Assembly: GCA_963666285.1 (NCBI GenBank)
Contig: OY762711.1
DNA from: Sedimentisphaerales bacterium
Lineage (GTDB): Bacteria; Planctomycetota; Phycisphaerae; Sedimentisphaerales; SM23-30
Length of the DNA: 64,000 bases
Direction: 5' to 3' (one strand)
The position numbers were made by a program, and so were the translations under genes. Position 1 is the first letter of the stretch, and each line of letters opens with the position of its first letter. Below, in pieces: positions 29,666 to 49,765 of the stretch. The notes beneath the pieces are model-generated. The model saw only the letters and a list, made by a program, of their open reading frames with translations. It did no database searches and had not been told where the DNA came from.

Positions 29666-32143
29666 TTATATTCCTTTTCTGTTTTTATCAATTATTTTAG
29701 CCGAAGAAAAATCAGCTACCGGCTTATAACCCTTTAGCGGGATAATATGCTCGTTAATAATATCAAGGAAGTCAGACGGATACGGGAAGAACGCATCTTC
29801 GATTTCATCCGGCGGTGTAATCCAGTTCTTGGCACCAAGCACAACCGGCGGAGCATCCAGCTCATCAAAAGCGAGCGTACTGATATTAGATGCCATAGTA
29901 TGCAGAAAACTGCCGCGTTCACAGGCATCAGAAGCCAGCAGAATCTTGCGGGTCTTCTTAACAGACTCGATAACCTTTTCGTAGTTAAACGGAACAAGAG
30001 TTCTCGCGTCGATAATTTCACAGCTCAGGCCATATTTTTCTTCCAACTCTTTAGCTGCTTCGATCGCACGGTAAAGGGTAGCACCAACAGTAAGAATAGT
30101 AAGGTCGTTACCTTCTTTACGAACAGCCGGTTCGCCAAATTCGATACTATACGATTCAGACGGTATGCCGCCCGGCTGGAATTCCTCTGCAATGCCATAT
30201 AGACGCTGGCTTTCAAAGAAGATAACGGGGTCTGTCCCGGTTAGAGCATTATACAGCAGTCCTTTTGCATCGTATGGAGTCGCCGGAAATGCTATCTTTA
30301 GACCAGGTATGTGAGCACAAAGAGCGGTCCAGTCCTGACTGTGCTGAGCTCCGTATTTGCTGCCCACCGATACACGCATTGTAACAGGCATCTTAAGCAA
30401 ACCACCACTCATAGACTGCCATTTACATAACTGGTTAAATACTTCGTCACCGGCACGGCCAAGGAAGTCGCAATACATTAGCTCGATAAGAGCACGACCA
30501 CCCTCCAGGGCATAACCAACCGCGGTACCGGCAATGGCTGCCTCTGCAATCGGAGAATTAAACAGGCGATGGTACGGCAGAGCCTCGGTCAGGCCGCGAT
30601 ACACGGCAAAGGCACCGCCCCAGTCACGATTTTCTTCGCCGTAAGCAACCAGAGTCGGGTCGGTATAGAACCGATCAATAATAGCTTCAAACAATGCATC
30701 TTTGTAACCTACACAGCGAGTATCTTTCAGACGCTCGCCATTTTCACCATAAGCAGAACGGCTCTTAGACTCCAGGCTCTTGGTTCGTGGGTTTTCCGCA
30801 ATTGTTTCAATGAGAACATCCGGCTTACGGGTAGTATCCAGCGACTCGATTGTTTCATTAGAAAACATAGTCTGCTCAAGAAGGCAATTTTCTTTTTTCA
30901 GGTCGGCACGAGGTGACACTTCCAGGTCGGCAGCAAGGCCAAGAGCCCTGGTAATCAGTCCGTCGGCATATTCAGCTATCTCTGTCAGCTTCGCTTCGTT
31001 GCAAACCTTGGCCTTAACAAGTTCCTTACCAAAGTTTACGGTCGAATCATGTTCCATCCAGGCTTCGATTTCTTCCTTTTGGCGATAGCTGCTCTGGTCA
31101 GAAGGAGAATGGCCGCTATAACGGTAAGTTACGGTATCCAGCAGAACCGGGCCGGCCCCTTTTTCCAGGATCTGACGTTTACGGTCGATAGCATCGGCAA
31201 CGGCAAGCGGGTTATAACCATCAATACGCTCGGCATGCATCTGCTCAGGATTGAGACCTGCACCAATACGGGCAAGCGAGCCAAAGCCCATTGTCTCACC
31301 TTCAGGCTGGCCGCCCATGCCGTAGAAGTTATTATTGAAGTTCATGATCAGCGGCAGCCCGCCCTTGTGGGCATCATCCCAAAGCTGCTTGAACTGGTCC
31401 ATAGTAGCAAAACATAAGCCTTCCCAAACCGGACCGCAGGCACTGGAGGCGTCACCGATATTACAGATAATAATACCGGTTTTCTGGTTAACTTTTTTGA
31501 ACAGTGCCGCGCCAACTGAAACATCGCCAGAACCGCCAACAATTGCGTTATTCGGATAGACACCAAACGGCGGGAAGAAAGCATGCATCGAGCCGCCCAT
31601 ACCTTTATTCAGACCGGGTTCGCGACCAAATACCTCGGCAAGAGTTCCGTAGATAAGAAAATCAATTGCCAGGTCTTTGACCGAACCGCCATTAGAGTTC
31701 TTTTCAACTATCTTGAGACACCAGCCACCAAAATAGTTCTCCATAATCTCCATAAGTTCTTTTTCATTAAGCTTTTCGATAGCAGAAAGACCTTTGGCAA
31801 GAATTTCGCCATGGCTGCGGTGGCTGCCATAAATATGGTCGTCAATATTCAGATGGTAGGCCTGACCGACAGCGGCAGCTTCCTGGCCAATTGACAAATG
31901 GGCCGGCCCTTTATGCATATATTCTACGCCGTTATATACACCACGCAACTTGATCTCATTCAGCATGTTTTCAAAGGTACGAATTATAACCATATCACGC
32001 TGGATACGGATTAAATCATCTTTGCTAAATCTTTTAAGTTCATCCTTAACAGACTTGTTATACTGGTTAACGGGTATCGGCTTGAACTCTATCTGGCCGC
32101 TTTTACGCATATCTGAAGGATTAACAACTTGACACTTAGGCAT
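29666..32143 (-). CDS. TPP-dependent dehydrogenase E1, fused alpha-beta (2-oxoacid/acetoin dehydrogenase family)
   Basis: [27 protein letters not shown] motif, RYSGHS; beta part [26 protein letters not shown]. Confidence 0.93.
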
Positions 32144-32162
32144 TTCTTAACTCCTATAATTA

Positions 32163-33917
32163 TTATTTAACAATTTTAACACCATCAGGTGCTTCAATAT
32201 TAGATTTAACAGTACCATCGGGTAGTTTTTCATGACGAATTTTAATAACCCCCTGCGGTACAGGATAAGTTCCCTCAACCCATTTAAGGTCAACTAAATG
32301 AGGTTCAATCTTGACTACTTTACAACCTGGTTCCAGTGGCTTTACACCAAGTACATGCTCGCTAAGCCAGGCGGTAGGACCAGAAGCCCAGCCATGACAT
32401 AAGCTATGTCGAAATCCGACATAACAGTAATTACCAAAATCACCATGAATATCTTTTTTGCCTTCAGGCACTAATTCATCAATCGGAACTGCATTATCAG
32501 TCCAGTCCAGGTCAAAGTCTTCCCAAAATGTTGTAGCCCCCATATCAAGCATACCACCCCAATATTGACGAATAACATCAAGGCTGCCTTGATAATCCCT
32601 GGCTTTCGCTCTTGCCTGTAAAACGTAATAGCCATAAAAAGTAGACATACGTTTTGGACCATCAACAGCCATAACCTCCCGGTTCATTTTTTTGGCACCA
32701 GCCAAATCAGCTAATGCCAATAATGCCGCGGCTTGCTTGCTGTCAGCAGGGTCTGGCTTGCAAGTTCGAAGCTTTCGTACAGATTTAAGACACCTGTCTC
32801 TGGTATCAACCTCATTTAAAATCGAGCATAACTCTGCACCTTTTTCCAGCGTAATAATTAACAGTGCCTGCAACCCTGCATGCTTAGCCTTAGGATTTGC
32901 CTGACTGGGCCAATCAAGAAACCGCATTTCAGGAAGAGTTTCCTGGCCGTCTTCAGCAACAAAACCGGATAATTGATTTAACAAACCAGTAATGTACTCT
33001 TTTTGTTTACTAAGAAAATCGATATCTCCTGTATACAGATAATAATCATGCTGTATAAGCAGCCACCACATAGAATATGAGCTTATTCCATTCATCCATC
33101 CCGGAAGCGGTGTTTCTTCACGAATAAGATCAAGACTGTCTTTAACTATATTTTGCCGGCCAAAGACACACTGAATGGTCATTGTTTCAGGATGCATATC
33201 GCCAATCCAGACAAGGCGGTCACGTTTTATGCCATCCCACAGATAATCCTGCATATTTAGGTGTACAGTATACGCTCCAACCTTCCAAATCTCATTCAAT
33301 CGTTCATCATCACACCTGAACGACCCTTTATATTCTAACGGGCGATAAATAAAGACGGCCCGTACACTTTTGAGCTCTAAGAAACCATCACCTAAATAAT
33401 CGATTCTAACAAAGCGAAAACCGGTATTTCCAATTTCAGCCGTCCCAAGCCATGGAATTATTGTTTCCTGGTCACGAACAGCGTGGTCATTGGTAGGGTT
33501 CTTGCCAACGTACAGACCATCACTCATAGCTTCACTAACCGACTCACCAAATCGCACACGAACCGAAACCGGCTTATTACTTAAACTCCCATTTCGATTG
33601 TTCCAGGCCATAATCTGAATACCGCCGTGCAACTCTTTACCAAAATCAAGAAGAATTGAACCACCTGTATGAAGTGAGCATGGATTTGAAGAGCCAAGTG
33701 TTATCTGTCCTGAACGTTTTAATAAAAGTGCTTCCGAATTATTGACTATATCTTCTCCGGAGGTCCAGACAACACGTGTTGGTACCACATATTCTCTTAC
33801 CCGCGGATCAATATCACCGCCTGCCAGACTAGGCGTAGATGCATTTATTTCGCAAAAACATCCAATTGATAATATCAGCGATAATGAAATAATAATCATG
33901 CGTTTTGTTAAATTCAT
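32163..33917 (-). CDS. Exported alpha-L-rhamnosidase (GH78)
   Basis: LDFGKELHG, GFRFVRI, DGIKRDRLVWIGD, GATTFWE, SLCHGWASGP, signal peptide. The track starts at 33932. Confidence 0.9.
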   Translation of the reverse strand: MNLTKRMIIISLSLILSIGCFCEINASTPSLAGGDIDPRVREYVVPTRVVWTSGEDIVNNSEALLLKRSGQITLGSSNPCSLHTGGSILLDFGKELHGGIQIMAWNNRNGSLSNKPVSVRVRFGESVSEAMSDGLYVGKNPTNDHAVRDQETIIPWLGTAEIGNTGFRFVRIDYLGDGFLELKSVRAVFIYRPLEYKGSFRCDDERLNEIWKVGAYTVHLNMQDYLWDGIKRDRLVWIGDMHPETMTIQCVFGRQNIVKDSLDLIREETPLPGWMNGISSYSMWWLLIQHDYYLYTGDIDFLSKQKEYITGLLNQLSGFVAEDGQETLPEMRFLDWPSQANPKAKHAGLQALLIITLEKGAELCSILNEVDTRDRCLKSVRKLRTCKPDPADSKQAAALLALADLAGAKKMNREVMAVDGPKRMSTFYGYYVLQARAKARDYQGSLDVIRQYWGGMLDMGATTFWEDFDLDWTDNAVPIDELVPEGKKDIHGDFGNYCYVGFRHSLCHGWASGPTAWLSEHVLGVKPLEPGCKVVKIEPHLVDLKWVEGTYPVPQGVIKIRHEKLPDGTVKSNIEAPDGVKIVK

Positions 33918-33928
33918 ATAACCCCCTA

Positions 33929-34723
33929 TCATCGCTTCACTTCTGATATATTTTCTTGACCGGGATAAACCATTTTCACATTATGAGATCTAAGAAATTC
34001 TTCCCATTCCGAGTCAGGTCTTTCATTTGTTATAATTGTGGATATCTGGTGGAAATCCATGATCTTATATAAAGAAGGCTGACCGAATTTACTGCTATCA
34101 GCAAGTAAAATCAGCTCTGTAGCATTTTTGGCTGCAAAAGAATAGATATGGGCACTGTCAACATCGGATGCGGTAATACCAAAATCCATACCAAGGCCGT
34201 CAGTACCAAGGAAAGCACGATAGCCGCGAAGCTTTTCAAGAACTTCAGCGGCCATAGGGCCTACCGTATCCATTCTGTCCGGGCGATATTGACCGCCAAG
34301 CATGAGAACATTAATAGTAGGAATATTAAGTTCCTGAGCAATCCGGGCAGAGTTGATAATAATCGATAAGTTCCTTTTACTCCTAAGGTAAGGGGTCATC
34401 TGGAAACAAGTGGTACCAGAATCCAGGAATAAATGCTCGCCATCAATTATCATATCGCTGGCAAGCCTGGCGATGGCTTCTTTGGCTTCAACGTTTCTAA
34501 CCGATTTGGACATAAAGGAAAAATCGGTCTTGCGGACAACTGACGCTCCGCCGTGGGTAAGTTCAAGAAGTCCTTCGGCAGCCAAACCATGCAGATCCCT
34601 TCGAACAGTAGCTTCAGAGACGCCAAGCTGGTTGGAAAGCTGTCGTACCATTACATAACCCGCCTGGTATGCCGAAGACAGAATCTGTTCTTTTCGCTGG
34701 TTGATACCCATTTCTTTAGCCAT
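33929..34723 (-). CDS. DeoR/GlpR family regulator
   Basis: VSEATVRRDL HTH, HGGA, FLDSGTT, LADSSKF. Confidence 0.95.
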   Translation of the reverse strand: MAKEMGINQRKEQILSSAYQAGYVMVRQLSNQLGVSEATVRRDLHGLAAEGLLELTHGGASVVRKTDFSFMSKSVRNVEAKEAIARLASDMIIDGEHLFLDSGTTCFQMTPYLRSKRNLSIIINSARIAQELNIPTINVLMLGGQYRPDRMDTVGPMAAEVLEKLRGYRAFLGTDGLGMDFGITASDVDSAHIYSFAAKNATELILLADSSKFGQPSLYKIMDFHQISTIITNERPDSEWEEFLRSHNVKMVYPGQENISEVKR

Positions 34724-35080: not shown

Positions 35081-37039
35081 ATGTTTTATATCACATTGCC
35101 AAAGAAGCTCCATAAAGCCAGCCAAGTTGTTATATATAAATGGCTTACAGGAGTTGGAGAGAAGATTGAAAAGGGACAAACGCTTTGCGTGGTCCATATC
35201 GGTCAGGAATTATTTGAGATCCAATCAGACATATCAGGCTGCCTTTTGAAGCAAACGGCACCGGCTGGCGGCGTTATTTCAGGTGTCGAGCCGGTTGCAG
35301 TAGTCGGAGAAAAAGGCGAAGACGTATCGATATTGGACAAAAACAGCGATATCAATACTGAAAACAAGGCTGAAAACGCAAAACAGGAAGTAATAGAGAG
35401 TAAAACAGAAACACAATCTGCCCAAGCAACCACAGCGGGAGTCGATAAAATGAGTTCAGAAAGTACAAGCTCAGCAGCGCAAGGTGAAGTTATCCCTATA
35501 CTGATGCCTCAAGCAGGTCAGAGTATGGAAGAAGGAACGATAGTAGCGTGGAAAGTAGCGGAAGGCGACCGAATAGAGGTTGGGCAGATAATCATGGAAA
35601 TCGAGACAGACAAAGCAGTTATGGAAGTAGAAGCTGCGGATGCCGGTCTAGTAGCCAAGATAATAAGCAAAGAAGGCGATATAGTCGAGGTTAAGCAGCC
35701 GGTCGCATTTCTGGCAGAAGAAGGCGTTGACCTGAGCTCTTATACAGGTGTAACAGCAACAAGCGAAGCACCAGCAACAAGCGAAGCACCAGCGGCCAGC
35801 AACGGCGCTACCGCGGCGGCGAACGAAGCCCCTGCGGCGATGCCGGAAGGAGTAACGCCGATTCTGATGCCGCAAGCGGGTCAGAGTATGGAAGAGGGAA
35901 CGATTGTAGCCTGGAAAGTAGCAGAAGGCGACCGCATAGAAGTCGGCCAGGTTATAATGGAAATCGAGACAGATAAAGCAGTTATGGAAGTAGAAGCTGT
36001 TGATGCGGGCCGGGTTGCGAAGATTGTGAGCCAGGAAGGTGATATAGTTGAGGTAAAAGAGCCGGTTGCATACCTGGCAGAAGAAGGCGTAGACGTTGAC
36101 GGCTATATCGCGGCGAGCAGCGGCGGTGCAGCAGGCGTCCAGCCGAGCAGCAGCCACCAGCAAGCGAACAAAGGAAGCGTCGCGTCGGCCAACGGCGAGC
36201 TGAAACAATCGAAATCGCCCGCGCAGCGCACTGAGACGGGTCGCGTCAAGGCCTCGCCGGCCGCGCGGAAGGCAGCTGCCGATGCAGGCATCAACCTGTC
36301 ATCGATCAGTGCCGGGTCCGGGCCGGGTGGTCGCATCCTGTCAACGGATGTAAAAAATGCCAAAATCATCCCATCTGAAGAGGTGGTCATACCACTTACC
36401 AAGATGCGTCGAGCAATTGCCAAGAACCTTCAATATTCGAAACAGACAGTACCACATTTCTATATGAAAGGTACTATTGATGCCGCTAAATTATTTGACA
36501 CTTATAAAGCGACTAAAGAAGAGTTCAAATGCTCAGTGAATGATTTTGTTACCATGGCATGTGCCAAGGCAATACGTCAGTACCCGGCATTCAGGAGTCA
36601 GTATATCGACGACCAGATAGTTGAGAAACCACTGGTGAATATCGGTATAGCGGTTGGAACTGATGACGGGCTGACCGTGCCGGTAGTATGCGATATTGAC
36701 AGGATGACACTAGAGAGATTGGCAGCCAGAACTCGTGAGGTAGTGGAATCGGCACGTAACGGCAAGATGGAAGGTGTCGGCCAGGGCATATTTACAATTA
36801 CGAACCTAGGCATGTTCGGCACAGAAGAATTTTCAGCGATAATCAATCCGCCGGAAGCCGCTATCCTGGCAGTCGGCGCGATTCGTGAAGATATAATAGT
36901 TAAAAACGGTGCGATTATGCCGACACGTGTGATGACAATGACGCTGAGCGTTGACCATAGAGTAATTGACGGCGTATTGGCGGCCCAGTTTATGAATACG
37001 CTTAAAGAGACATTAGAGAATCCAGAAAAGCTCCTATAA
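35081..37039 (+). CDS. Dihydrolipoamide acyltransferase E2 (one degenerate and two intact lipoyl domains)
   Basis: Two ETDKA lipoyl domains, ASPAARK..GSGPGGRI E3-binding domain, FTITNLG, DHRVIDG. Confidence 0.95.
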   Translation: MFYITLPKKLHKASQVVIYKWLTGVGEKIEKGQTLCVVHIGQELFEIQSDISGCLLKQTAPAGGVISGVEPVAVVGEKGEDVSILDKNSDINTENKAENAKQEVIESKTETQSAQATTAGVDKMSSESTSSAAQGEVIPILMPQAGQSMEEGTIVAWKVAEGDRIEVGQIIMEIETDKAVMEVEAADAGLVAKIISKEGDIVEVKQPVAFLAEEGVDLSSYTGVTATSEAPATSEAPAASNGATAAANEAPAAMPEGVTPILMPQAGQSMEEGTIVAWKVAEGDRIEVGQVIMEIETDKAVMEVEAVDAGRVAKIVSQEGDIVEVKEPVAYLAEEGVDVDGYIAASSGGAAGVQPSSSHQQANKGSVASANGELKQSKSPAQRTETGRVKASPAARKAAADAGINLSSISAGSGPGGRILSTDVKNAKIIPSEEVVIPLTKMRRAIAKNLQYSKQTVPHFYMKGTIDAAKLFDTYKATKEEFKCSVNDFVTMACAKAIRQYPAFRSQYIDDQIVEKPLVNIGIAVGTDDGLTVPVVCDIDRMTLERLAARTREVVESARNGKMEGVGQGIFTITNLGMFGTEEFSAIINPPEAAILAVGAIREDIIVKNGAIMPTRVMTMTLSVDHRVIDGVLAAQFMNTLKETLENPEKLL

Positions 37040-37051
37040 TAGCTTTTCTAA

Positions 37052-40194: not shown

Positions 40195-40557
40195 ATGGAA
40201 AAACTATCCGACAGGACAAAAGAATTTGCAATTAGAATTATAAAATTATGCCAGGTAATAGATTCCAAACCTGGCATAGGAAAGCTGCTATGTAAACAAT
40301 TGCTTCGATCTGGTACATCAATTGGAGCAAATATTGCTGAAAGTGAAGGAGCACAAAGCGATGCTGACTATCTGACAAAATGCAGCATTGCCGTAAAAGA
40401 AGCTCGAGAGACCCAATATTGGCTTGACCTTCTAATACAGTCAGAAATAATAAATGAGAACAGACCAAAAGATATTAAACAAGAAAGCGACGAAATAGTT
40501 GCTATCTTAACTACTATTTGTAAGAAAATGAAAGATAAGCATAACGCTAAAGTGTAA
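40195..40557 (+). CDS. Four-helix-bundle protein (23S rRNA IVS protein/bAvd-like family)
   Basis: RTKEFAIRII, KQLLRSGTSIGANIAE, KEARETQYWL; markedly more AT-rich than its neighbours. Confidence 0.93.
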   Translation: MEKLSDRTKEFAIRIIKLCQVIDSKPGIGKLLCKQLLRSGTSIGANIAESEGAQSDADYLTKCSIAVKEARETQYWLDLLIQSEIINENRPKDIKQESDEIVAILTTICKKMKDKHNAKV

Positions 40558-43792: not shown

Positions 43793-44857
43793 ATGGAAAT
43801 ATTGCAGATAATAACCGAATTGTCGCACGAGTTTGGTACAAGTGACTATGTACGCGGCGGCGGTGGTAATACATCATGTAAGAGTACTGAAACACTGTGG
43901 GTAAAACCATCCGGTACAACGCTGGCCGGGTTGAAGCCCGAACTATTTGTTGCACTTGACCGTGAGAATCTGGGCGGGCTGTATAAGGTAGAGACACCGA
44001 CAGAGCCGGCTGAGAGAGAAGTACTGGTAAAGGATATAATGGCAAACGCGGTAATGCTGGGCAGTAAAGGTCGTGCATCGGTTGAAGCACCGCTGCATGA
44101 TTCGCTGAGTGCGACTTATGTTGTACATACGCATCCATATTTAGTTAACGGTATGACCTGCGGAAAAGAAGGTAAGGCCAAATGCAAAGAGCTGTTTCCA
44201 GATGCGCTGTGGCTGGACTATATCGACCCGGGCTATACGCTGTGTATGTTTGTTCGTGAAGAGATCAAGAAATATGCCGAGGCGAACGGCCAGGAGCCGA
44301 AGATGATCTTTTTGAAGAATCATGGCGTCTTTGTCGCCGGTGATACAGCAGATGAAGTTCGCGGAATCTATAAGACGATTATTGATACGCTAACGAATTA
44401 CTACGATGAAAAAGGGATTACAGCCGAACTGGCAGTTGAGCCGGACCCGGACGATGACGCAGTTGACCAGGTTGGGCTGAAGCTGGCAGAATGTTTGAGC
44501 GATGAGACTGTCGCAGTTGCGGCATGCGGGATGTTTGACTATCCGCAAGGACCGATTACGCCGGACCATATAGTATATGCGAAGTCTTATCCGTTTGTCG
44601 GCGAGCCGAGTGAGGAAGCGATTAATGAGTTCAAAGCCAAACATGGATACGAGCCAAAGATAGTAGTCTGCTCGGATGCCGTATTTGGTATCGGGCCGAC
44701 AGAGACCAAGGCGGCTCTGGCACTGGAGCTGGCTATTGATGGAGCAATTGTTTTGAAACTAGCGGAAGCTTTTGGCGGAATTGATCTTATGACGGACCAG
44801 GCACGTGAATTTATCGAAAACTGGGAAGTTGAATCTTACCGAAGCAAACAGATCTAA
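43793..44857 (+). CDS. Class II aldolase/adducin-fold protein (resembles the aldolase half of RhaEW)
   Basis: GGGGNTSCK, VKPSG, ASVEAPLH, VVHTHP, LKNHG, TPDHIVY, NWEVESYR. Confidence 0.88.
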   Translation: MEILQIITELSHEFGTSDYVRGGGGNTSCKSTETLWVKPSGTTLAGLKPELFVALDRENLGGLYKVETPTEPAEREVLVKDIMANAVMLGSKGRASVEAPLHDSLSATYVVHTHPYLVNGMTCGKEGKAKCKELFPDALWLDYIDPGYTLCMFVREEIKKYAEANGQEPKMIFLKNHGVFVAGDTADEVRGIYKTIIDTLTNYYDEKGITAELAVEPDPDDDAVDQVGLKLAECLSDETVAVAACGMFDYPQGPITPDHIVYAKSYPFVGEPSEEAINEFKAKHGYEPKIVVCSDAVFGIGPTETKAALALELAIDGAIVLKLAEAFGGIDLMTDQAREFIENWEVESYRSKQI

Positions 44858-45185: not shown

Positions 45186-46652
45186 ATGAGCGAAAAGCAT
45201 GCATATGCAGCTGTTGACCTTGGGGCTGAGAGCGGCCGCGTGGTCAAGGGCATCCTGAGTAACGGGAAACTAGAACTGGAAGAGATCAACAGGTTCAAAA
45301 ACGGACTTGTCCCTATCGATGGTCACGATCACTGGAACCTGATCAGGTTGTACGAGAATATGATCGAGGCGTTTAAGATCTGTGCCAAGAGCGACGTGCC
45401 AATCGAAAGTATTGGTGTGGATTCCTGGGGAGTGGACTTTGCCCTGATGGCTGAGGATAATGCCCTGATGGGATTGCCGGTGGCTTACCGTGACAGCCGA
45501 ACCGACGGGATGATGGAGAAGCTGTTTGAGAAGATGCCTAAGGATAAGGTTTACGAGAAGACCGGAATCCAGTTTATGAAGTTTAACTCTGTTTACCAGC
45601 TGTTTTCACTTACCCAGGCGAATAAGTCATGGATGGATAAGGTGACAGACTTTCTTATGGTGCCGGACTATTTTCATTTTCTGTTTACCGGTAAAAAGAC
45701 CAATGAATACACAAACGCATCTACCACCCAGCTGCTGAACGTTGAGACAGGTACATGGGACACAGAGCTGCTGGAGACTATTGGTATTAATCCTTCGATA
45801 TTCAAAGAGCTGATCAAGCCGGGAACAAAGATCGGACCGATCACCGAGCAACTTCAGCAGGCGACAGGACTGGGACCGGTTCCGGTGATTGCCCCTGGTA
45901 CGCATGATACTGCATCGGCAGTTGCGGCTGTACCGGCGGAAGGCGGCAAATGGGCATATATAAGCTCAGGCACCTGGTCGCTGATGGGTATTGAAGCCGA
46001 TAAGCCAAACAGCACGCAGAAAGCCTTTGGATATAACTTCACAAATGAAGGCGGCGTATTTAATACGATCAGATTTTTGAAGAATATCATGGGACTGTGG
46101 CTGGTGCAGAGATGCAGGGCTGCATTTGACAAGGAGATCGACTATGGTACACTGACACAGATGGCGGCAGATGCCCCGGCGTTTGTAAGCCTGGTGGATC
46201 CGGATTGCGATGCGTTTATGAACCCTGCATCAATGACAGATGCGATAGATGAATTCTGTAAGAAGACCGGTCAGCCGGTGCCTGCGTCGGAAGGTGCATA
46301 TGTACGCTGCTGCCTGGAGAGCCTGGCACTGCAGTATCGACTGGTACTGGATATGCTGGGTGATGTATATGAAACCGATTTCGATAAGATTAATATCGTT
46401 GGCGGCGGCACCCAGAATAAACTGCTGAACCAGTTTACTGCTGATGCATGTAACGCGGAAGTTGTGACCGGTCCGATTGAAGCTACAATAATCGGAAATG
46501 TGATCATGCAGGCTATCGGAATGGGGCATATCAAGGACCTGAGCGAAGGGCGTCAGATAATACGCAACTCGTTCGAGATGGAGACATTTAAGCCTGGTAA
46601 TGCCGCGGCATGGGACGAGCAATACGAACGGTTTAAGAAGTTGAAAAAATAG
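45186..46652 (+). CDS. rhaB: Rhamnulokinase
   Basis: AVDLGAESGR, IGVDSWGVD, YRDSRT, TGIQFM, THDTASA, ISSGTWSL, FTNEGG, LKNIMGLW. Confidence 0.93.
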   Translation: MSEKHAYAAVDLGAESGRVVKGILSNGKLELEEINRFKNGLVPIDGHDHWNLIRLYENMIEAFKICAKSDVPIESIGVDSWGVDFALMAEDNALMGLPVAYRDSRTDGMMEKLFEKMPKDKVYEKTGIQFMKFNSVYQLFSLTQANKSWMDKVTDFLMVPDYFHFLFTGKKTNEYTNASTTQLLNVETGTWDTELLETIGINPSIFKELIKPGTKIGPITEQLQQATGLGPVPVIAPGTHDTASAVAAVPAEGGKWAYISSGTWSLMGIEADKPNSTQKAFGYNFTNEGGVFNTIRFLKNIMGLWLVQRCRAAFDKEIDYGTLTQMAADAPAFVSLVDPDCDAFMNPASMTDAIDEFCKKTGQPVPASEGAYVRCCLESLALQYRLVLDMLGDVYETDFDKINIVGGGTQNKLLNQFTADACNAEVVTGPIEATIIGNVIMQAIGMGHIKDLSEGRQIIRNSFEMETFKPGNAAAWDEQYERFKKLKK

Positions 46653-46684: not shown

Positions 46685-47077
46685 ATGAATCATGTTGGAA
46701 AGAAATTATGGGTTGTGCCGGACGGATATATACCGGCATTAACTGACAACGACAAGGATAACGTTAACGGATATCTGTCACACGAATGCGCGTGCATACT
46801 GAATTGCGGGCCTGGTGATGCCGAGATAGAGCTGACAGTCTATTTTGAAGATTGTGAACCGGTTGTGATCGGCGGCATAGTAGTGCCGGCGAGGCGCAGT
46901 TCGCACCTCAGAATGGACGAGCTGGAAATCGACGGTAAAGCCGCGATACCACGAGCGAAACCCTATTCGCTGGTGGTGAAGAGCAGTACGGCGGTGGTGG
47001 TGCAGATGTCCAGATTGGATACAACACAAACAAATATGGCATTTTTATCAACAATGGCTATACCATATGACATTTAA
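46685..47077 (+). CDS. Anabaena sensory rhodopsin transducer (ASRT)-family protein
   Basis: GKKLWVVPDGYIP, SHE..CILN, TVYFED.EP, VPARR..HLR, VVVQ.SRLDT. Confidence 0.85.
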   Translation: MNHVGKKLWVVPDGYIPALTDNDKDNVNGYLSHECACILNCGPGDAEIELTVYFEDCEPVVIGGIVVPARRSSHLRMDELEIDGKAAIPRAKPYSLVVKSSTAVVVQMSRLDTTQTNMAFLSTMAIPYDI

Positions 47078-47100: not shown

Positions 47101-48366
47101 ATGTCAAAGAATATTGAACAAGCTTACGAAATTGCAAAAGAAAAGTATGCAGCGATCGGAATTGATACCGAAGCGGCGATGAAGAAACTTGAGACCGTGC
47201 CAGTGTCAATTAATTGCTGGCAGGGAGACGATGTGGGCGGTTACGAACACGTGGGCGGCGCAGAGCTGACCGGCGGTATCCAGACGACCGGAAACTACCC
47301 GGGTAAGGCTCGCACAATAGATGAGCTTCGCAGCGATATCGAAAAAGCCATAAGCCTGATACCTGGCAACCATCGATTGAACCTTCATTCATGCTACCTG
47401 GATAATGGCGGCAAGTTTATCGATCGTAACGAGATGGAGCCCAGCCATTTCCAGAGCTGGATAGACTGGGGTAAGGGCAAGCTTCACGGGATGGACTTTA
47501 ACCCGACCTATTTCTCACACGATAAAGCCGGTGACGGTTTTACCTTGAGCCATCCGGACAAGGGAATCCGCGATTTCTGGATCGAGCATGGTATTGCATG
47601 CCGAAAGATCGGTGCGGAAATGGGTAAACAGTTCGGTACAACAACAGTAACAAACTACTGGATGCCGGATTCATATAAAGATACACCGGCTGACCGTGTT
47701 GCACCTCGCGAACGTATGGCCGATTCGCTGGACAAGATTTTTGTTGAAGATATCGATCCGAAGCTGCACCTGGATGCGGTTGAATCAAAACTGTTTGGTA
47801 TCGGCGGCGAAAGCTATACTGTAGGATCGCACGAATTCTTTATGGGTTATGCGGTATCACGTCAGAAGGTACTATGTCTGGACGCGGGTCACTACCATCC
47901 AACAGAAATGATCTCAGAAAAGATTTCATCTGTAATGATGTTCTGCCCGGAACTACTGCTACATGTAAGCCGTCCAGTTCGTTGGGACAGCGACCACGTA
48001 GTATGTTTCGATGACGAACTACAGCAGATTGCCAAAGAGCTGGTCCGCAGCGGCAAGCTGGAAAAGGTACATATCGGACTGGACTTCTTTGACGCCTCTA
48101 TCAACCGTGTAGCGGCATGGGTAATCGGTACCCGTAATATGGTTAAGGCAATGCTCTTTGCCATGCTGGAGCCAACCGAAACTCTGCGTAAGATTGAACT
48201 GGAAATGAACTATACCGAGCGACTGGTAATATTCGAAGAATTGAAGACAATGCCTTGGGCAGCTGTATGGGATTACTACTGCATGAAACAGGGAGCTCCT
48301 GTCGGCCTGGACTGGTTCAAGGTTGTTAAGCAGTATGAAAAAGAAGTTCTGTCCAAACGCGGCTAA
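47101..48366 (+). CDS. rhaA: L-rhamnose isomerase
   Basis: CWQGDDV, TGNYPGKAR, DFNPT, AVESKLFGIG.ESYTVGSHEF, LDAGHYHPTE, HVSRPVRWDSDHV. Confidence 0.97.
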   Translation: MSKNIEQAYEIAKEKYAAIGIDTEAAMKKLETVPVSINCWQGDDVGGYEHVGGAELTGGIQTTGNYPGKARTIDELRSDIEKAISLIPGNHRLNLHSCYLDNGGKFIDRNEMEPSHFQSWIDWGKGKLHGMDFNPTYFSHDKAGDGFTLSHPDKGIRDFWIEHGIACRKIGAEMGKQFGTTTVTNYWMPDSYKDTPADRVAPRERMADSLDKIFVEDIDPKLHLDAVESKLFGIGGESYTVGSHEFFMGYAVSRQKVLCLDAGHYHPTEMISEKISSVMMFCPELLLHVSRPVRWDSDHVVCFDDELQQIAKELVRSGKLEKVHIGLDFFDASINRVAAWVIGTRNMVKAMLFAMLEPTETLRKIELEMNYTERLVIFEELKTMPWAAVWDYYCMKQGAPVGLDWFKVVKQYEKEVLSKRG

Positions 48367-48398
48367 TTACTAGCTGATTTTTCAAAAAAGTCAATATT

Positions 48399-48437
48399 GC
48401 ACGGATGTTTGGATATCATCTGAACGTCCGTGCTTTT
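48399..48437 (+). terminator. Hairpin/terminator after rhaA
   Basis: GCACGGATGTTTGGA...TCTGAACGTCCGTGC followed by TTTT. Confidence 0.65.
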
Positions 48438-48517
48438 GTCGTATCATAAGCGATGTGTCAGGGGGACTGGATCACAGCCCTGAATACGAAATTCTACTTC
48501 ACAATCAGGAGATTATT

Positions 48518-49765
48518 ATGGATCTTAACATTCTTGCAGAAGCAAATCCGACTGTAGGTATAATTATTTTTATGCTCGGCGGTCTGGCCGGAGCAGTATT
48601 TTATACTCCTCTGAAAAAGGTAAAAGACTGGGCCTGGGAAAGCTACTGGATGATCTATGCAGTGTTTGCCTTGCTAATTGTACCCATTGTGCTGGCATTT
48701 ATTGTATCGCCCAATTTCATATCAGTAATCAAAGCATCACCAAAAGAAGAAGTCATAAAATGCTTTATATGCGGAGCAGCATGGGGCATCGGCGGTCTGA
48801 CCTGGGGACTAATGATCCGCTTTCTCGGATTTGGCCTGGGCCTGGCGTTAGGTTGCGGTATCTGTTCAGCAGCAGGAACATTTCTGCCACCAATAATAAA
48901 AGGTGGAGAAGATTTGAATAAATTATTCACAACAAATGGCGGTAAAATATCAGTCTTAAGTGCGATCATATCAGTTGCCGGTATAGTATTTGTTGGCATG
49001 GCAGGTATGAGTAAAGAAAATGAACTGCCGGAAGAAGAAAAGAAAAAGGCAGTTGCAGAATTTAATTTCAAAAAAGGCATTATCGCTGTTTTATTTTCAG
49101 GCTTGATGAGTTCGGCAATGAGTATCGGCCTGCAAGGCGGACCAACAATTGAATCGTTGGCAAAGACCACTGAGCCAGTGACAAATATCGCCTGGGCCGG
49201 AATACCTGTATTAGTAGTTGTATTACTAGGCGGTTTTATTATTAATGCCGGATGGTGCCTGATATTAAATATCAAAAATAAGACAACCGGCGACTACGTA
49301 AAGAGCAGCTCACCGATTTTACCGAATCTTATTTTTGCCGCTATTGCCGGTGCTATCTGGTGTTCACAGTTTATCTGCTTTAAGACAGGTGAGCCACAGA
49401 TGGGCGATACAGCTTATATAGGCTGGGCAGTACTAATGGCAAGTTCAATTCTATTCAGCCAGGTAATAGGCATGTTCTTTGGCGAATGGAAAGGCGTAAG
49501 TAAAAAGACAATGCAGCTGCTTGTCATTGGCTTAATTCTACTAATCGTTTCAGCAGTAGTTGCCGGTTACAGCGGAAAAGTCGCAAAAGATGAAGCTGCA
49601 AAAGTTGAAAGTGCTGCTGCCGGTCAGTTAGAAAAGACAGATGAACCTGCCCCGGTTATGCCGGCGAAGAAACTCACGCCTGCGGTAAAAACAGATGAAG
49701 CTGCCGGGGCAGTAGAAGAAGCAGTTGAAAAGGTCGAAGAAGCTGCCGAGGATATGAAGCAGTAG
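48518..49765 (+). CDS. rhaT: L-rhamnose/proton symporter with an acidic C-terminal tail
   Basis: FYTPLKKVKDWAWE.YW, WGIGGLT.GL, EFNFKKG, GEWKG. ATG at 48518 follows AGGAG; the track starts at 48455. Confidence 0.92.
   Translation: MDLNILAEANPTVGIIIFMLGGLAGAVFYTPLKKVKDWAWESYWMIYAVFALLIVPIVLAFIVSPNFISVIKASPKEEVIKCFICGAAWGIGGLTWGLMIRFLGFGLGLALGCGICSAAGTFLPPIIKGGEDLNKLFTTNGGKISVLSAIISVAGIVFVGMAGMSKENELPEEEKKKAVAEFNFKKGIIAVLFSGLMSSAMSIGLQGGPTIESLAKTTEPVTNIAWAGIPVLVVVLLGGFIINAGWCLILNIKNKTTGDYVKSSSPILPNLIFAAIAGAIWCSQFICFKTGEPQMGDTAYIGWAVLMASSILFSQVIGMFFGEWKGVSKKTMQLLVIGLILLIVSAVVAGYSGKVAKDEAAKVESAAAGQLEKTDEPAPVMPAKKLTPAVKTDEAAGAVEEAVEKVEEAAEDMKQ

What the first reader, a model, noticed from the sequence alone, without database searches (positions are those of the whole stretch)
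29666..49765. Possible lactaldehyde-free L-rhamnose pathway: flip the sugar phosphate, then cleave it to acetyl-CoA with an acetoin-dehydrogenase-like complex
Seen: one DeoR-centred divergent locus carries GH78, rhaT, rhaA and rhaB plus a fused TPP E1, E2, E3, a SorE-like reductase, an SrlD-like SDR, a class II aldolase-fold protein and a PHP protein. There is no FucO/AldA-type lactaldehyde enzyme or microcompartment shell gene in the locus. Established: SorE plus SorD/SrlD convert L-sorbose-1-P to glucitol-6-P to fructose-6-P by reducing one end and oxidising the other, and AcoAB-type complexes split acyloins into acetyl-CoA and an aldehyde. Inference: the same chemistry on rhamnulose-1-P gives a 1-deoxy-hexulose-6-P, a methyl-ketone acyloin. 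E1/E2/E3 could cleave that to acetyl-CoA, NADH and a tetrose-4-P, with the aldolase-fold protein acting as an AraD-like epimerase. This accounts for the oxidoreductases and the complex and avoids lactaldehyde. The alternative is ordinary RhaEW-like aldol cleavage with a co-located pyruvate dehydrogenase. I cannot verify novelty without a literature search.
Basis: partly seen in the sequence, partly recalled or inferred. Interest (0 to 1): 0.9.

Follow-up and report, generated by a model that had tools for sequence, protein, structure and literature searches.

The report
Rhamnose locus with own lipoamide complex
A rhamnose-utilisation gene cluster carries a widely conserved but functionally untested set of two sugar-phosphate-type dehydrogenases, a phosphoesterase and a dedicated thiamine/lipoate enzyme complex, which may be an undescribed way of turning deoxy-sugars into acetyl-CoA.

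Summary
All the genes named sit at the stated coordinates, and the genome has no microcompartment shell gene.

The core is E1, DeoR, E2, E3, PHP, SDR and the 555-aa dehydrogenase (MDR). It is a conserved module. Of 51 related loci with enough upstream DNA, 37 carry SDR, PHP, E3, E2 and E1 together.

- The SDR's best solved relative is sorbitol-6-phosphate dehydrogenase.
- E1 orthologues on Rhizobium and Agrobacterium plasmids sit in sugar-kinase operons with an AcoC-type partner.
- The complex coexists with a canonical AceE in several genomes.

"Lactaldehyde-free" is not supported:
- The aldolase-fold gene travels with rhaA/rhaT in genomes that lack this E1 family, so it looks like a genuine aldolase.
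- By published gene tables, not checked by sequence here, Caldicellulosiruptor has a similar cluster. It makes one 1,2-propanediol per rhamnose (PMC4187192).

That cluster is already in print as "function unclear" (PMC4187192, PMC8579813). This scan has also met the module in at least 8 other windows. The mechanism remains inferred. My best reading, at about 0.35, is an accessory flip-and-cleave route that runs beside the aldolase.

The parts
29666..32143 (-). Fused E1 alpha/beta TPP-dependent dehydrogenase (825 aa)
   Evidence: Pfam finds E1_dh, Transket_pyr and Transketolase_C. It scores below the PDH E1 equivalog cut-offs: 224 against 321 and 178.6 against 393.85. A GDA...NNN TPP motif and [10 protein letters not shown] are present. 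Relatives are 73-94% identical, 57-78% identical in 29 other genomes of the phylum sample, and 52-53% identical on alpha-proteobacterial plasmids.
32163..33932 (-). GH78-like alpha-L-rhamnosidase (589 aa); a lineage-specific insertion, not part of the conserved module
   Evidence: Pfam finds Bac_rhamnosid6H and Bac_rhamnosid_C. None of the 80 related loci has a match.
33929..34723 (-). DeoR-family regulator, divergent from E2
   Evidence: Pfam finds HTH_DeoR and DeoRC. It is present in 42 of 51 loci with full upstream flank.
35081..37039 (+). E2 dihydrolipoyl acyltransferase (652 aa, at least two lipoyl domains)
   Evidence: Pfam finds 2-oxoacid_dh, Biotin_lipoyl x2 and E3_binding. TIGR01349 scores 411 against a cut-off of 445. 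It is the only PF00198 match in the genome.
37252..38679 (+). E3 dihydrolipoyl dehydrogenase
   Evidence: TIGR01350 scores 515.7 against a cut-off of 408.8. A CLNYGC redox motif is present.
38861..40123 (+). PHP-family metal-dependent phosphoesterase (420 aa), substrate unknown
   Evidence: The AF2 model has pLDDT 91.8. Foldseek matches RNase AM, BAD_1165 and Cv1693 at E 1e-10 to 3e-10. Invariant residues are N37, H39, H41, E97, H199, D284, E342 and H379. It is in 45 of 51 loci. In G211 a homologue at 27% identity lies directly upstream of the MDR, with no other module gene within 10 kb.
40195..40557 (+). Four-helix-bundle (23S rRNA IVP family) gene, an insertion
   Evidence: PF05635 and TIGR02436 match. 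It is found in 1 of 80 related loci, and not at this position.
40710..41795 (+). SrlD-like short-chain dehydrogenase (361 aa; catalytic domain 93-361 with a 92-aa N-terminal extension)
   Evidence: NF009050 (sorbitol-6-P dehydrogenase) scores 236 against a cut-off of 307, and the RhaEW model scores 164. The best PDB hit is SrlD 5o3z. It is 69% identical to the SDR half of the fused aldolase/SDR relatives. TGxxxGxG and YxxxK motifs are present.
42046..43713 (+). 555-aa Zn-type MDR dehydrogenase, SorE-like, with an inserted second Rossmann-like domain
   Evidence: Pfam finds ADH_N only. C46, H91 and E92 are invariant. The AF2 model matches generic MDR folds, with target-normalised TM (TMt) about 0.6-0.8 over the listed hits. 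It shares a C-terminal tail with the normal-size MDR of the diverged module, and its insert aligns to that enzyme's Rossmann domain. Some sources name relatives L-sorbose 1-phosphate reductase.
43793..44857 (+). Stand-alone class II aldolase-fold protein (RhaE-like); probable L-rhamnulose-1-phosphate aldolase
   Evidence: PF00596 matches. It resembles the N-terminal half of the bifunctional aldolase/SDR models (E 4e-24). It aligns to residues 18-399 of a fused relative at 32% identity. An HTH zinc motif is present. It is linked to RhaA and RhaT in G211 and G259, where this E1 family was not found.
45186..46652 (+). Rhamnulokinase RhaB
   Evidence: TIGR02627 scores 574.4 against a cut-off of 527.95.
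46685..47077 (+). ASRT-family small protein between rhaB and rhaA
   Evidence: PF07100 matches at 3e-39. It is conserved next to RhaA in L013, G211 and G259.
47101..48366 (+). L-rhamnose isomerase RhaA
   Evidence: NF002203 scores 696.6 against a cut-off of 572.
48455..49765 (+). RhaT-type rhamnose/proton symporter
   Evidence: PF06379 scores 174 bits. NF010024 scores 337 against a cut-off of 468.
50052..51593 (+). 513-aa membrane protein, probable transporter, co-occurring with RhaA
   Evidence: The only hit is a weak one to TIGR02358. Seven of the 80 related loci carry it: six of the eight with RhaA, plus one (L063) without. It also lies in the RhaA clusters of G211 and G259.

Best explanation
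The locus joins two units.

Unit 1 is an ordinary rhamnose entry set: the GH78 rhamnosidase, RhaT, the 513-aa transporter, RhaA, RhaB and a RhaE-type aldolase. It makes L-rhamnulose-1-phosphate and can split it to DHAP plus L-lactaldehyde.

Unit 2 is a DeoR-controlled accessory module conserved across phyla. It holds the SorE-like MDR, the SrlD-like SDR, the PHP phosphoesterase and E1/E2/E3. My best reading is that this module takes the same 6-deoxy-ketohexose 1-phosphate (rhamnulose-1-P, or fuculose-1-P in relatives) through three steps:
1. The MDR reduces C2.
2. The SDR oxidises C5, next to the methyl group. This gives a 1-deoxy-2-ketohexose 6-phosphate, a methyl-ketone acyloin.
3. The acetoin-dehydrogenase-like E1 cleaves that compound by TPP chemistry. 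The acetyl group passes via lipoyl-E2 to CoA, E3 makes NADH, and a tetrose 4-phosphate is released.

On this reading the module runs beside the aldolase route, not instead of it.

Shown: gene identities, module conservation, family affinities and genomic associations.

Inferred: every substrate and every reaction of unit 2. The role of the PHP protein is unexplained.
For: - Module conservation: 37 of 51 loci with full flank carry SDR, PHP, E3, E2 and E1 together. They come from Planctomycetota, Verrucomicrobiota, Acidobacteriota and Actinomycetota records.
- A strongly diverged second version keeps the same parts list. In G176 and G140 the order is PHP, an SDR that passes the SrlD cut-off, DeoR, a 416-aa MDR, then E2, E3 and E1 at 59% identity.
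- The SDR is closest to sorbitol-6-P dehydrogenase. The MDR is specifically related to the normal-size MDR of that version.
- E1 orthologues at 52-53% identity over 97% of their length lie on alpha-proteobacterial plasmids. In all five records viewed they are followed by a 78-aa lipoyl protein and an AcoC-like hydrolase, and a SorC regulator and a sugar kinase lie in the same block (the kinase follows the hydrolase in the three Rhizobium records). The neighbours vary by record: sugar ABC transporters, RbsD/FucU, a TIM-barrel isomerase, a mannitol-dehydrogenase-family gene, xylB and lipA. The next-best plasmid E1s are only 30-34% identical.
- The complex coexists with a canonical AceE in G001 and G004 and in G304, G010 and G133, and with a 1177-aa PFOR in this genome.
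- Entry genes next to the module differ between loci:
  - RhaB/RhaA in 7-10 of 44 loci with at least 8 kb downstream.
  - FucI in L019.
  - An ABC transporter, a RhaI-like isomerase and a kinase in L085.
  - A Mannitol_dh-family gene in L027 (followed by an FGGY kinase) and in L078.
- BMC shell genes, the other planctomycetal way of handling lactaldehyde, occur in 106 of 301 sampled genomes. Only 1 of the 30 with this E1 and 2 of the 20 with this MDR have them.
- Published tables for C. bescii list SrlD (51% to E. coli SrlD), SorE (54% to a Klebsiella SorE), and AcoC/AcoL/AcoB-like genes in an operon with a DeoR regulator and rhaA (PMC8579813 supplement 2, rows read). The cluster is up-regulated on rhamnose (PMC4187192, passages read).
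Against: - The physiological data I found for a carrier of a similar cluster are for C. saccharolyticus, which makes 1,2-propanediol, acetate, H2 and CO2 at 1:1:1:1 from rhamnose (PMC4187192). There the methyl end goes to propanediol, so a flip-and-cleave route cannot carry the main flux.
- The parts are not always together. The MDR occurs at 44% identity or more in 9 of 20 genomes where this E1 was not found. These include three 98-99% complete genomes of the window's own order. Conversely, the E1 occurs in 19 of 30 genomes where this MDR was not found at 44% identity or more, though G176 and G140 of these carry a 416-aa MDR in its place.
- G289 and G021 have RhaB, PHP, MDR and an aldolase/SDR fusion without E1.
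- An aldolase is always at hand where RhaA is, so the module is not needed to complete a pathway.
- The fused aldolase/SDR architecture matches RhaEW, which has been shown to give DHAP plus L-lactate (PMC3870299).
- E2 is PDH-like (411 against 445 on TIGR01349). It is the only E2 in this genome and in G002.
- AceE is rarer in E1-bearing genomes (3 of 30) than in the others (95 of 271). That pattern would also fit a PDH replacement.
- By my own stereochemical reasoning, the product would be D-threose-4-P or L-erythrose-4-P, not D-erythrose-4-P, unless something epimerises it.
- The PHP protein has no role in the scheme.
Confidence: 0.35

Rival explanations
1. Lactaldehyde-to-acetyl-CoA module with a dedicated pyruvate dehydrogenase. 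The aldolase gives DHAP plus L-lactaldehyde. The SDR acts like RhaW and oxidises lactaldehyde to L-lactate. The MDR oxidises lactate to pyruvate. E1/E2/E3 is a PDH complex.
For: - The RhaEW-like fusion of aldolase and SDR occurs in 32 of 71 related SDR genes, and RhaEW is validated in vitro (PMC3870299, passages read).
- E2 and E3 are closest to PDH-type models.
- The E2 is the sole E2 in this genome and in G002.
- AceE is found in only 3 of 30 genomes with this E1, against 95 of 271 without it.
- The parts occur independently, as enzymes of common metabolites would.
- The scheme has exactly two dehydrogenases plus a PDH-type complex.
Against: - E1 orthologues in Rhizobium and Agrobacterium lie in sugar-kinase operons with an AcoC-type partner, while the chromosomal pdhABC is the essential PDH (PMC5118466).
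- The complex coexists with AceE in five genomes and with PFOR here.
- The SDR is far closer to SrlD than canonical RhaW is (41% by alignment, against the 22% quoted in PMC3870299).
- I recall no MDR-type lactate dehydrogenase.
- E1 scores below the PDH cut-offs, and its alpha half is divergent (85 bits to human E1 alpha).
- The PHP protein is unexplained.
Confidence: 0.18
2. The complex acts on L-lactaldehyde itself. This is the suggestion printed for C. bescii. One possible form is TPP/lipoamide-dependent oxidation to an acyl-CoA, which would make the module the functional counterpart of the microcompartment's aldehyde dehydrogenase step.
For: - PMC8579813 (passage read) states that lactaldehyde dehydrogenase and reductase are missing in Caldicellulosiruptor. 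It proposes the acetoin-dehydrogenase-like genes Athe_0702-4 for this step.
- The module and BMC shell genes are nearly mutually exclusive in the phylum sample.
Against: - I recall no E1 that uses a plain aldehyde as donor.
- Caldicellulosiruptor reduces the C3 unit to propanediol, which an oxidising complex cannot do (PMC4187192).
- This reading does not explain the SorE- and SrlD-type enzymes or the kinase-linked alpha-proteobacterial cassettes.
- The anticorrelation with BMC is phylogenetically structured.
Confidence: 0.1
3. The complex cleaves a sugar phosphate, but by different chemistry from the reader's flip. One example: direct oxidation of C5-OH of rhamnulose-1-P or fuculose-1-P, acyloin cleavage to acetyl-CoA plus a C4 keto-aldehyde phosphate, oxidation of that aldehyde by the SDR, and OtnC-like decarboxylation by the fused aldolase-fold domain to DHAP. 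Alternatively, the substrate may come from another sugar or polyol.
For: - It rests on the same family and context evidence as the best explanation.
- It would give the aldolase-SDR fusion two consecutive steps.
- Mannitol-dehydrogenase-family and FGGY kinase genes lie next to the module in L027 and in Agrobacterium; L078 has the mannitol-dehydrogenase-family gene only.
- The alpha-proteobacterial cassettes have a kinase and an isomerase but no SorE/SrlD pair.
Against: - The aldolase-fold proteins gave no match to the OtnC model at E <= 1e-3.
- The window-type aldolase travels with RhaA without SDR or E1.
- The scheme is pure inference, with no intermediate known from any organism.
Confidence: 0.25
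4. Chance neighbourhood: an L-sorbose-type operon and a 2-oxoacid dehydrogenase operon merely lie beside rhamnose genes.
For: - PMC8579813 labels the SrlD and SorE genes "Sorbose?".
- Only 7 of 44 related loci with at least 8 kb downstream have RhaA.
Against: - The same parts list recurs in 37 of 51 loci, and again in a strongly diverged version.
- In L085 transporter, isomerase, kinase, PHP, aldolase/SDR, MDR, E2, E3 and E1 all lie on one strand in a row.
- RhaA is enriched among genomes that have the E1 (10 of 30) or the MDR (6 of 20), against 30 of 301 overall.
Confidence: 0.05

Closest known systems
Caldicellulosiruptor rhamnose-associated cluster Csac_0865-0876 / Athe_0695-0706 (PMC4187192, PMC8579813)
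   Same: By the papers' tables, the cluster holds FucA, a novel aldolase RhaD1, SrlD, SorE, then AcoC-like E2, AcoL-like E3 and AcoB-like E1, a DeoR regulator and rhaA. It is up-regulated on rhamnose and its function is described as unclear. The parts list is the same as here.
   Different: I could not obtain those sequences, so membership of its E1 in this E1 family is not verified here. The paper's best characterised hit for that E2 is AcoC (33% identity), whereas the E2 here carries a 2-oxoacid_dh (CAT-type) catalytic domain; I could not see that E2's own domains. The papers list no PHP gene; two genes of the cluster are missing from the table I read. That organism makes propanediol stoichiometrically.
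RhaEW pathway (bifunctional L-rhamnulose-1-P aldolase / L-lactaldehyde dehydrogenase; Chloroflexus, B. subtilis YuxG; PMC3870299)
   Same: Class II aldolase and SDR are homologous over the full length. They are fused in 32 of 71 relatives, sit in rha loci and are under a DeoR-type regulator.
   Different: In the window the two are split. All scores are far below the equivalog cut-offs: 316-331 against 567.75 for fused relatives. The SDR half is closer to SrlD. It is accompanied by MDR, PHP and E1/E2/E3, which RhaEW loci lack.
L-sorbose pathway SorE / SorD(SrlD) of enterobacteria and lactobacilli (recalled from my own knowledge)
   Same: An MDR ketose-1-phosphate reductase is paired with an SDR hexitol-6-phosphate dehydrogenase.
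   Different: The substrate here would be a 6-deoxy sugar phosphate. The MDR carries an extra Rossmann-like insert. The SDR scores 236 against 307 on the SrlD model. There is no PTS.
Acetoin dehydrogenase enzyme system AcoABCL
   Same: A TPP E1 alpha/beta plus lipoyl E2 and E3 that could cleave a methyl-ketone acyloin to acetyl-CoA plus an aldehyde. The orthologous alpha-proteobacterial cassettes use an AcoC-like hydrolase-fold partner.
   Different: E1 is fused. The window's E2 has the 2-oxoacid_dh catalytic domain. The regulator is DeoR or SorC rather than, as I recall, a sigma-54 AcoR. The genes sit among sugar genes. The substrate is untested.
Planctomycete/Verrucomicrobia-type microcompartment for fucose and rhamnose (Erbilgin 2014, as cited in PMC11958385)
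   Same: It handles the lactaldehyde branch of deoxy-sugar catabolism in the same phyla, under a DeoR regulator.
   Different: There are no shell genes here. The two systems almost never share a genome in the sample: 1 of 30 genomes with this E1 have shell genes, against 105 of 271 without it.

Membership tests
RhaEW bifunctional aldolase/dehydrogenase | Aldolase and SDR domains in one polypeptide | tested here: not met
   The window has separate genes at 43793-44857 and 40710-41795. They are fused in 32 of 71 related SDR genes.
RhaEW bifunctional aldolase/dehydrogenase | Score above the curated equivalog cut-off (TIGR02632, 567.75) | tested here: not met
   The window SDR scores 164.4 and the aldolase 76. 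Fused relatives score 316-331.
RhaEW bifunctional aldolase/dehydrogenase | Converts rhamnulose-1-P to DHAP plus L-lactate with NAD+ | not testable with these tools
   This needs an enzyme assay. It has been shown only for the Chloroflexus and B. subtilis proteins (PMC3870299).
Pyruvate dehydrogenase complex (E1 alpha/beta type) | E1 above the PDH E1 alpha and beta equivalog cut-offs | tested here: not met
   NF006667 scores 224 against 321, and TIGR03182 scores 178.6 against 393.85.
Pyruvate dehydrogenase complex (E1 alpha/beta type) | E2 and E3 of PDH type | tested here: inconclusive
   E2 scores 411.2 against 445 on TIGR01349. E3 scores 515.7 against 408.8 on TIGR01350.
Pyruvate dehydrogenase complex (E1 alpha/beta type) | Serves as the cell's pyruvate oxidising complex (no other present) | tested here: inconclusive
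   It is the sole E2 here and there is no AceE, but a PFOR is present. In G001, G004, G304, G010 and G133 the module coexists with AceE.
Acetoin dehydrogenase system AcoABCL | E2 of the AcoC type (lipoyl domain plus alpha/beta-hydrolase fold) | tested here: not met
   The window's E2 has the 2-oxoacid_dh catalytic domain. The feature is met in the orthologous plasmid cassettes.
Acetoin dehydrogenase system AcoABCL | Cleaves acetoin, a methyl-ketone acyloin | not testable with these tools
Sorbitol-6-phosphate dehydrogenase (SrlD/SorD) | Score above the NF009050 cut-off (307) | tested here: not met
   The window SDR scores 236.3. The SDR of the diverged module in G176 scores 359.3. The best PDB hit is SrlD 5o3z.
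L-sorbose-1-phosphate reductase (SorE) | Sequence membership in the SorE family | tested here: inconclusive
   No curated SorE model matched. Sources name 3 of the listed relatives SorE. The window MDR is 28% identical to the 416-aa MDR of the G176 module and shares its tail. No characterised SorE sequence was available to me.
Canonical rhamnose trio RhaA/RhaB/RhaD | RhaA and RhaB above equivalog cut-offs | tested here: met
   RhaA scores 696.6 against 572, and RhaB 574.4 against 527.95.
Canonical rhamnose trio RhaA/RhaB/RhaD | RhaD-type aldolase (NF002963 / TIGR02624) | tested here: not met
   The window's aldolase-fold protein does not hit the RhaD models and resembles RhaE instead. A true RhaD is found in the G176 lineage.
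PHP phosphoesterase superfamily | PHP fold with conserved metal-binding His, Asp and Glu residues | tested here: met
   Foldseek gives E about 1e-10 to PHP phosphoesterases, with target-normalised TM (TMt) 0.71-0.77. HxH and further invariant His, Glu and Asp residues are present. The Pfam PHP model itself gave no hit for the window protein, but it hits homologues in L103 and L104.

The most novel reading that the evidence does not exclude
E1/E2/E3 is a new kind of lipoamide-linked complex whose substrate is a 1-deoxy-2-ketohexose 6-phosphate. That substrate would be made from L-rhamnulose-1-P or L-fuculose-1-P by a SorE-like reductase and an SrlD-like dehydrogenase. The result would be a previously undescribed, widespread route from 6-deoxy-hexoses to acetyl-CoA plus a tetrose phosphate, one that bypasses lactaldehyde and microcompartments.
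Probability: 0.35. Interest if true: 0.85.

Novelty: new variant of a known kind. Interest (0 to 1): 0.65.

Why it matters
L-rhamnose and L-fucose are major sugars of pectin, algal polysaccharides and mucins. Their known catabolism always passes through toxic lactaldehyde or through non-phosphorylated acid intermediates.

The 555-aa dehydrogenase that anchors this module is encoded in at least 511 species genomes, and the module recurs around it across several phyla. It sits beside rhamnose or fucose genes, yet none of its parts has a measured activity. If it cuts the methyl end of deoxy-sugars into acetyl-CoA, three things follow:
- It would add a new sugar pathway.
- It would add a new substrate class for 2-oxoacid/acetoin-dehydrogenase-type complexes.
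- It would change carbon and redox budgets assumed for polysaccharide-degrading Planctomycetota and Verrucomicrobiota, and possibly for Caldicellulosiruptor.

If the complex proves to be a pathway-specific PDH, the result is more modest. It would still explain a long-noted "function unclear" cluster.

Tried and rejected
- **Housekeeping PDH.** This was my first reading, because the E2 is the only E2 in the genome. I downgraded it after three findings:
  - PFOR is present here.
  - AceE sits beside the module in other genomes.
  - E1 orthologues lie in plasmid sugar cassettes of Rhizobium, which has its own essential pdhABC.
- **Structure searches.** The MDR model matched only generic MDR enzymes, which says nothing about its substrate. 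The PHP model matched nucleotide and RNA phosphoesterases, again with no substrate clue.
- **Other look-ups.**
  - The ESM Atlas look-up of the PHP protein returned only "PHP-like/hypothetical" clusters.
  - The solved-structure sequence search of the PHP protein found nothing.
  - An Fe-ADH in the window (16680-17873) is ErcA-like with an adjacent histidine kinase. It is not a FucO: 345.7 against 523 on the lactaldehyde reductase model.
- **Literature.**
  - "rhamnulose" with "acetoin dehydrogenase": 0 papers.
  - "6-deoxy-5-ketofructose" with "rhamnose": nothing relevant.
  - "Phycisphaerae" with "rhamnose" and "propanediol": nothing relevant.
  - "pRL8" with "acetoin": nothing relevant.
  - A five-term search on 1-deoxy sugar, lipoyl and acetoin dehydrogenase: nothing relevant.
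  - "lactaldehyde" with "acetoin dehydrogenase": 6 papers. Only the C. bescii paper bears on the module's function.
  - van de Werken 2008, which holds the per-gene rhamnose expression values, is not in the library.
- **Left undone.**
  - I did not attempt to infer substrate from E1 active-site residues, because I had no reliable reference positions.
  - I did not verify by sequence that the Caldicellulosiruptor E1 belongs to this family.
  - RNA-read tools, complex prediction and the representative-protein search were not used.

Full report
**1. Is it there?**

Yes. ORF listing with Pfam and NCBIfam confirms the genes on both strands.

On the minus strand:
- A fused E1 alpha/beta (29666-32143).
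- A GH78-like rhamnosidase (32163-33932).
- A DeoR regulator (33929-34723).

On the plus strand:
- E2 (35081-37039).
- E3 (37252-38679).
- A 420-aa protein without a Pfam hit (38861-40123).
- A four-helix-bundle gene (40195-40557).
- An SDR (40710-41795).
- A 555-aa Zn-dehydrogenase-type protein, here called MDR (42046-43713).
- A class II aldolase-fold protein (43793-44857).
- RhaB, an ASRT-family protein, RhaA and RhaT, followed by a 513-aa membrane protein (50052-51593).

RhaA, RhaB and E3 pass their curated equivalog cut-offs.

The 420-aa protein is a PHP phosphoesterase by fold. Its AF2 model has pLDDT 91.8. Foldseek matches RNase AM, BAD_1165 and Cv1693 at about E 1e-10. An HxH motif and further invariant metal-type residues are present.

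Catalytic motifs are intact in the other enzymes:
- E2: two ETDKA motifs and DHRVIDG.
- E3: CLNYGC.
- E1: a GDA...NNN TPP motif and [10 protein letters not shown].
- SDR: TGxxxGxG and YxxxK.
- Aldolase: HTH.

No FucO- or AldA-type gene lies in the locus. The genome has no BMC shell gene.

**2. It is a conserved module, not a one-off.**

The MDR family is large and well conserved. I anchored a search of one genome per species on it. At least 511 stretches encode a relative. The best 80 loci come from records titled Planctomycetota, Verrucomicrobiota, Acidobacteriota and Actinomycetota.

A tblastn matrix of all window proteins against these loci shows the pattern. Among the 51 loci with at least 9.5 kb upstream of the MDR:
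- 49 have the SDR.
- 45 have the PHP protein.
- 45 have E2 and 44 have E3.
- 43 have E1.
- 42 have DeoR.
- 37 have SDR, PHP, E3, E2 and E1 together.

GH78 (0 of 80) and the four-helix-bundle gene (1 of 80) are local insertions.

The module comes in two forms:
- In 36 loci the SDR stands alone, at about 360 aa, as here.
- In 32 loci it is the C-terminal half of a fused aldolase/SDR protein (at least 600 aa by my ORF calls; 668-851 aa).

The window SDR is 69% identical to that half. The window aldolase aligns to the other half at 32%.

Rhamnose genes accompany the module only sometimes. Of 44 loci with at least 8 kb downstream, 7 have RhaA and 10 have a RhaB-like kinase. Other entry genes also occur:
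- FucI in L019.
- A Mannitol_dh-family gene in L027 (followed by an FGGY kinase) and in L078.
- In L085, a complete one-strand row of ABC transporter, RhaI-like isomerase, kinase, PHP, aldolase/SDR, MDR, E2, E3 and E1.

**3. A second, strongly diverged version of the same parts list.**

In the phylum sample (301 genomes), 30 carry this E1 family at 57% identity or more. Twenty carry the MDR at 44% or more. Eleven carry both.

Contexts fetched for some of the others show several arrangements:
- In G176 and G140 the order is PHP (23% identical), SDR (43%), DeoR, a normal-size 416-aa MDR, E2, E3, and E1 (59%). That SDR passes the sorbitol-6-P dehydrogenase equivalog cut-off, 359 against 307.
- The window MDR shares its C-terminal half and a distinctive tail with the 416-aa MDR. 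Its 140-aa insert aligns to that enzyme's Rossmann domain, so the insert is a duplicated Rossmann-like domain.
- G054, G040 and G105 have only DeoR, E2, E3 and E1.
- G289 and G021 have RhaB, PHP, MDR and aldolase/SDR (G289 also RhaA), without E1.
- G211 has a bare PHP-MDR pair.

**4. What kind of enzymes are they?**

The SDR's best curated model and best solved relative are sorbitol-6-phosphate dehydrogenase. NF009050 scores 236 against a cut-off of 307. SrlD 5o3z scores 166 bits, against 109 for the next hit.

The fused relatives resemble RhaEW over their full length, but they score far below every equivalog cut-off: 316-331 against 567.75.

E1 is below the PDH E1 cut-offs. Its alpha half is divergent, with 85 bits to human E1 alpha. 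E2 is just below the PDH E2 cut-off, 411 against 445.

**5. Is E1/E2/E3 simply the cell's pyruvate dehydrogenase?**

For:
- It is the only E2 in this genome, and there is no AceE. It is also the only E2 in G002.
- AceE occurs in only 3 of 30 E1-bearing genomes, against 95 of 271 others. This contrast is phylogenetically structured.

Against:
- This genome has a 1177-aa PFOR.
- G001, the relative with the full rha-plus-module arrangement, has a bona fide AceE (1279.9 against 859.9). So has G004, and so have G304, G010 and G133.
- Orthologues at 52-53% identity over 97% of the length lie on Rhizobium, Agrobacterium and Pleomorphomonas plasmids. There the order is E1, a 78-aa lipoyl protein, an alpha/beta hydrolase (annotated acoC in one record), then a carbohydrate kinase in the three Rhizobium records, and a SorC-type sugar-binding regulator; in the Agrobacterium and Pleomorphomonas records the regulator follows the hydrolase and a xylB kinase lies nearby.
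- The cassette sits beside genes that vary by record: sugar ABC transporters, RbsD/FucU, a TIM-barrel isomerase, a mannitol-dehydrogenase-family gene, xylB and lipA. The next-best plasmid E1s are only 30-34% identical.
- In R. leguminosarum the chromosomal pdhABC are the growth-essential PDH genes, and the cassette hydrolase pRL80081 is non-essential (PMC5118466, passages read).

So this E1 family is consistently wired to sugar-phosphate regulators and kinases.

**6. Is lactaldehyde avoided?**

Probably not.
- The window-type aldolase (60-61% identical) lies in ALDO-ASRT-RhaA-RhaT clusters of G211 and G259, with the 513-aa protein one gene further on. These genomes are 98-99% complete, and this E1 family was not found in them; the SDR did not match within the stretches fetched around their MDR and RhaA genes.
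- G274 also has an aldolase copy next to RhaA.
- The G176 lineage has a canonical RhaD (244 against 170) next to RhaA and a kinase.

Thus wherever RhaA is found, an aldolase is found too. The aldolase behaves as part of the rhamnose entry set, not of the E1 module.

BMC shell genes, the planctomycetal device for lactaldehyde, are in 106 of 301 sampled genomes. Only 1 of the 30 with this E1 and 2 of the 20 with this MDR have them. This is compatible either with the module handling lactaldehyde or with it reducing lactaldehyde formation. Related genomes are not independent, so I make no statistical claim.

**7. What is in print.**

RhaEW was shown in vitro to convert rhamnulose-1-P to DHAP plus L-lactate (PMC3870299, passages read). 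That paper has no PDH or planctomycete content.

A lead from earlier notes of this scan took me to Caldicellulosiruptor.
- The review PMC4187192 (passages read) states that the cluster Csac_0865-0876 is highly up-regulated on rhamnose. [quoted passage not shown] It reports that rhamnose gives 1,2-propanediol, acetate, H2 and CO2 at 1:1:1:1.
- PMC8579813 (passages and supplement 2 rows read) lists the following genes:
  - Athe_0695, FucA.
  - Athe_0696, RhaD1.
  - Athe_0698, SrlD (51% to E. coli SrlD).
  - Athe_0699, SorE (54% to a Klebsiella SorE), labelled "Sorbose?".
  - Athe_0702-0704, with AcoC, AcoL and AcoB as best hits, described as "predicted dehydrogenase in rhamnose utilization". These are in an operon with a DeoR regulator (RhaR2) and rhaA.
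- The same paper proposes that this complex converts L-lactaldehyde.

I could not fetch those sequences, so their homology to the window genes rests on the papers' tables. The figure with per-gene expression values and the primary paper were not available. None of my searches found the flip-and-cleave idea in print.

**8. Weighing.**

Several things favour a sugar-phosphate substrate for E1:
- The SorE and SrlD family affinities.
- The recurrence of the same parts list in two diverged versions.
- The DeoR or SorC control.
- The kinase-linked plasmid cassettes with an AcoC-type partner.
- The coexistence with AceE or PFOR.

By my own Fischer-projection reasoning, rhamnulose-1-P and fuculose-1-P would converge on the same tetrose 4-phosphate after cleavage. 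That product would be D-threose-4-P or L-erythrose-4-P unless C4 is epimerised first.

Several things argue against it as a replacement of the aldolase route:
- The aldolase's independent linkage to RhaA.
- The RhaEW-like fusions.
- The modular occurrence of MDR(+PHP) and of E1/E2/E3 without each other.
- The stoichiometric propanediol of Caldicellulosiruptor.

I therefore commit, at about 0.35, to an accessory flip-and-cleave route that runs beside the aldolase. The rivals are:
- Other sugar-phosphate cleavage chemistry, about 0.25.
- A dedicated PDH fed by lactaldehyde via lactate, about 0.18.
- Direct action on lactaldehyde, about 0.10.
- Chance neighbourhood, about 0.05.

The PHP phosphoesterase is unexplained in every scheme, although it sits directly beside the MDR even where the other module genes are absent nearby.

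**9. Novelty.**

The gene association is real and widespread. It has already been noted in print as unexplained, and this scan has met it in at least 8 other windows.

What would be new is the function. The window adds one more member, in which the module is joined directly to GH78, RhaT, RhaA, RhaB and a stand-alone RhaE-type aldolase.

Noticed in passing
window 40195-40557: A four-helix-bundle (23S rRNA intervening-sequence protein family) gene is inserted between the PHP and SDR genes. Only 1 of 80 related loci has a match, and that match is elsewhere in the locus.
   Followed up: partly
window 46685-47077: An ASRT-family (Anabaena sensory rhodopsin transducer) small protein sits between rhaB and rhaA. 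It recurs next to RhaA in L013, G211 and G259. No RhaM-type mutarotase was seen in the locus, so it may be a sugar-binding or mutarotase-like accessory.
   Followed up: partly
window 50052-51593: A 513-aa membrane protein has only a weak CytX-like hit. Seven of the 80 related loci carry it: six of the eight with RhaA, plus L063 without. It also lies in the RhaA clusters of G211 and G259. It is probably a deoxy-sugar or oligosaccharide transporter.
   Followed up: partly
window 42046-43713, residues about 190-330: The extra 140 residues of the 555-aa dehydrogenase align to the Rossmann domain of the normal-size homologue. The enzyme therefore carries a duplicated, probably degenerate, second nucleotide-binding-like domain.
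   Followed up: partly
window 40710-40985 (SDR residues 1-92): Stand-alone SDRs of the module keep an N-terminal extension of about 90 aa. It has no clear similarity to the aldolase half of the fused forms. Its function is unknown.
   Followed up: no
window 16680-20451: An ErcA-type iron alcohol-dehydrogenase-like protein (605.9 against a cut-off of 550) is followed by a PAS histidine kinase. This looks like a regulatory pair and not a lactaldehyde reductase.
   Followed up: partly
window 2671-4416: A 581-aa ORF carries a weak POR_N match (54 bits). It is a 2-oxoacid:ferredoxin oxidoreductase-like protein, separate from the 1177-aa PFOR elsewhere in the genome.
   Followed up: no
L116-L120 (Rhizobium, Agrobacterium and Pleomorphomonas plasmids): A compact cassette holds the fused E1, a 78-aa lipoyl protein, an AcoC-like hydrolase and a SorC regulator, with a sugar kinase inside it (Rhizobium) or nearby (xylB). 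It has no E3 or SorE/SrlD pair next to it. In pRL8 it lies between sugar-transport genes and the homoserine catabolic genes. Its substrate is unknown.
   Followed up: partly
window 23620-27330: A 1236-aa TPR-repeat protein lies upstream of the locus. It appears unrelated.
   Followed up: no
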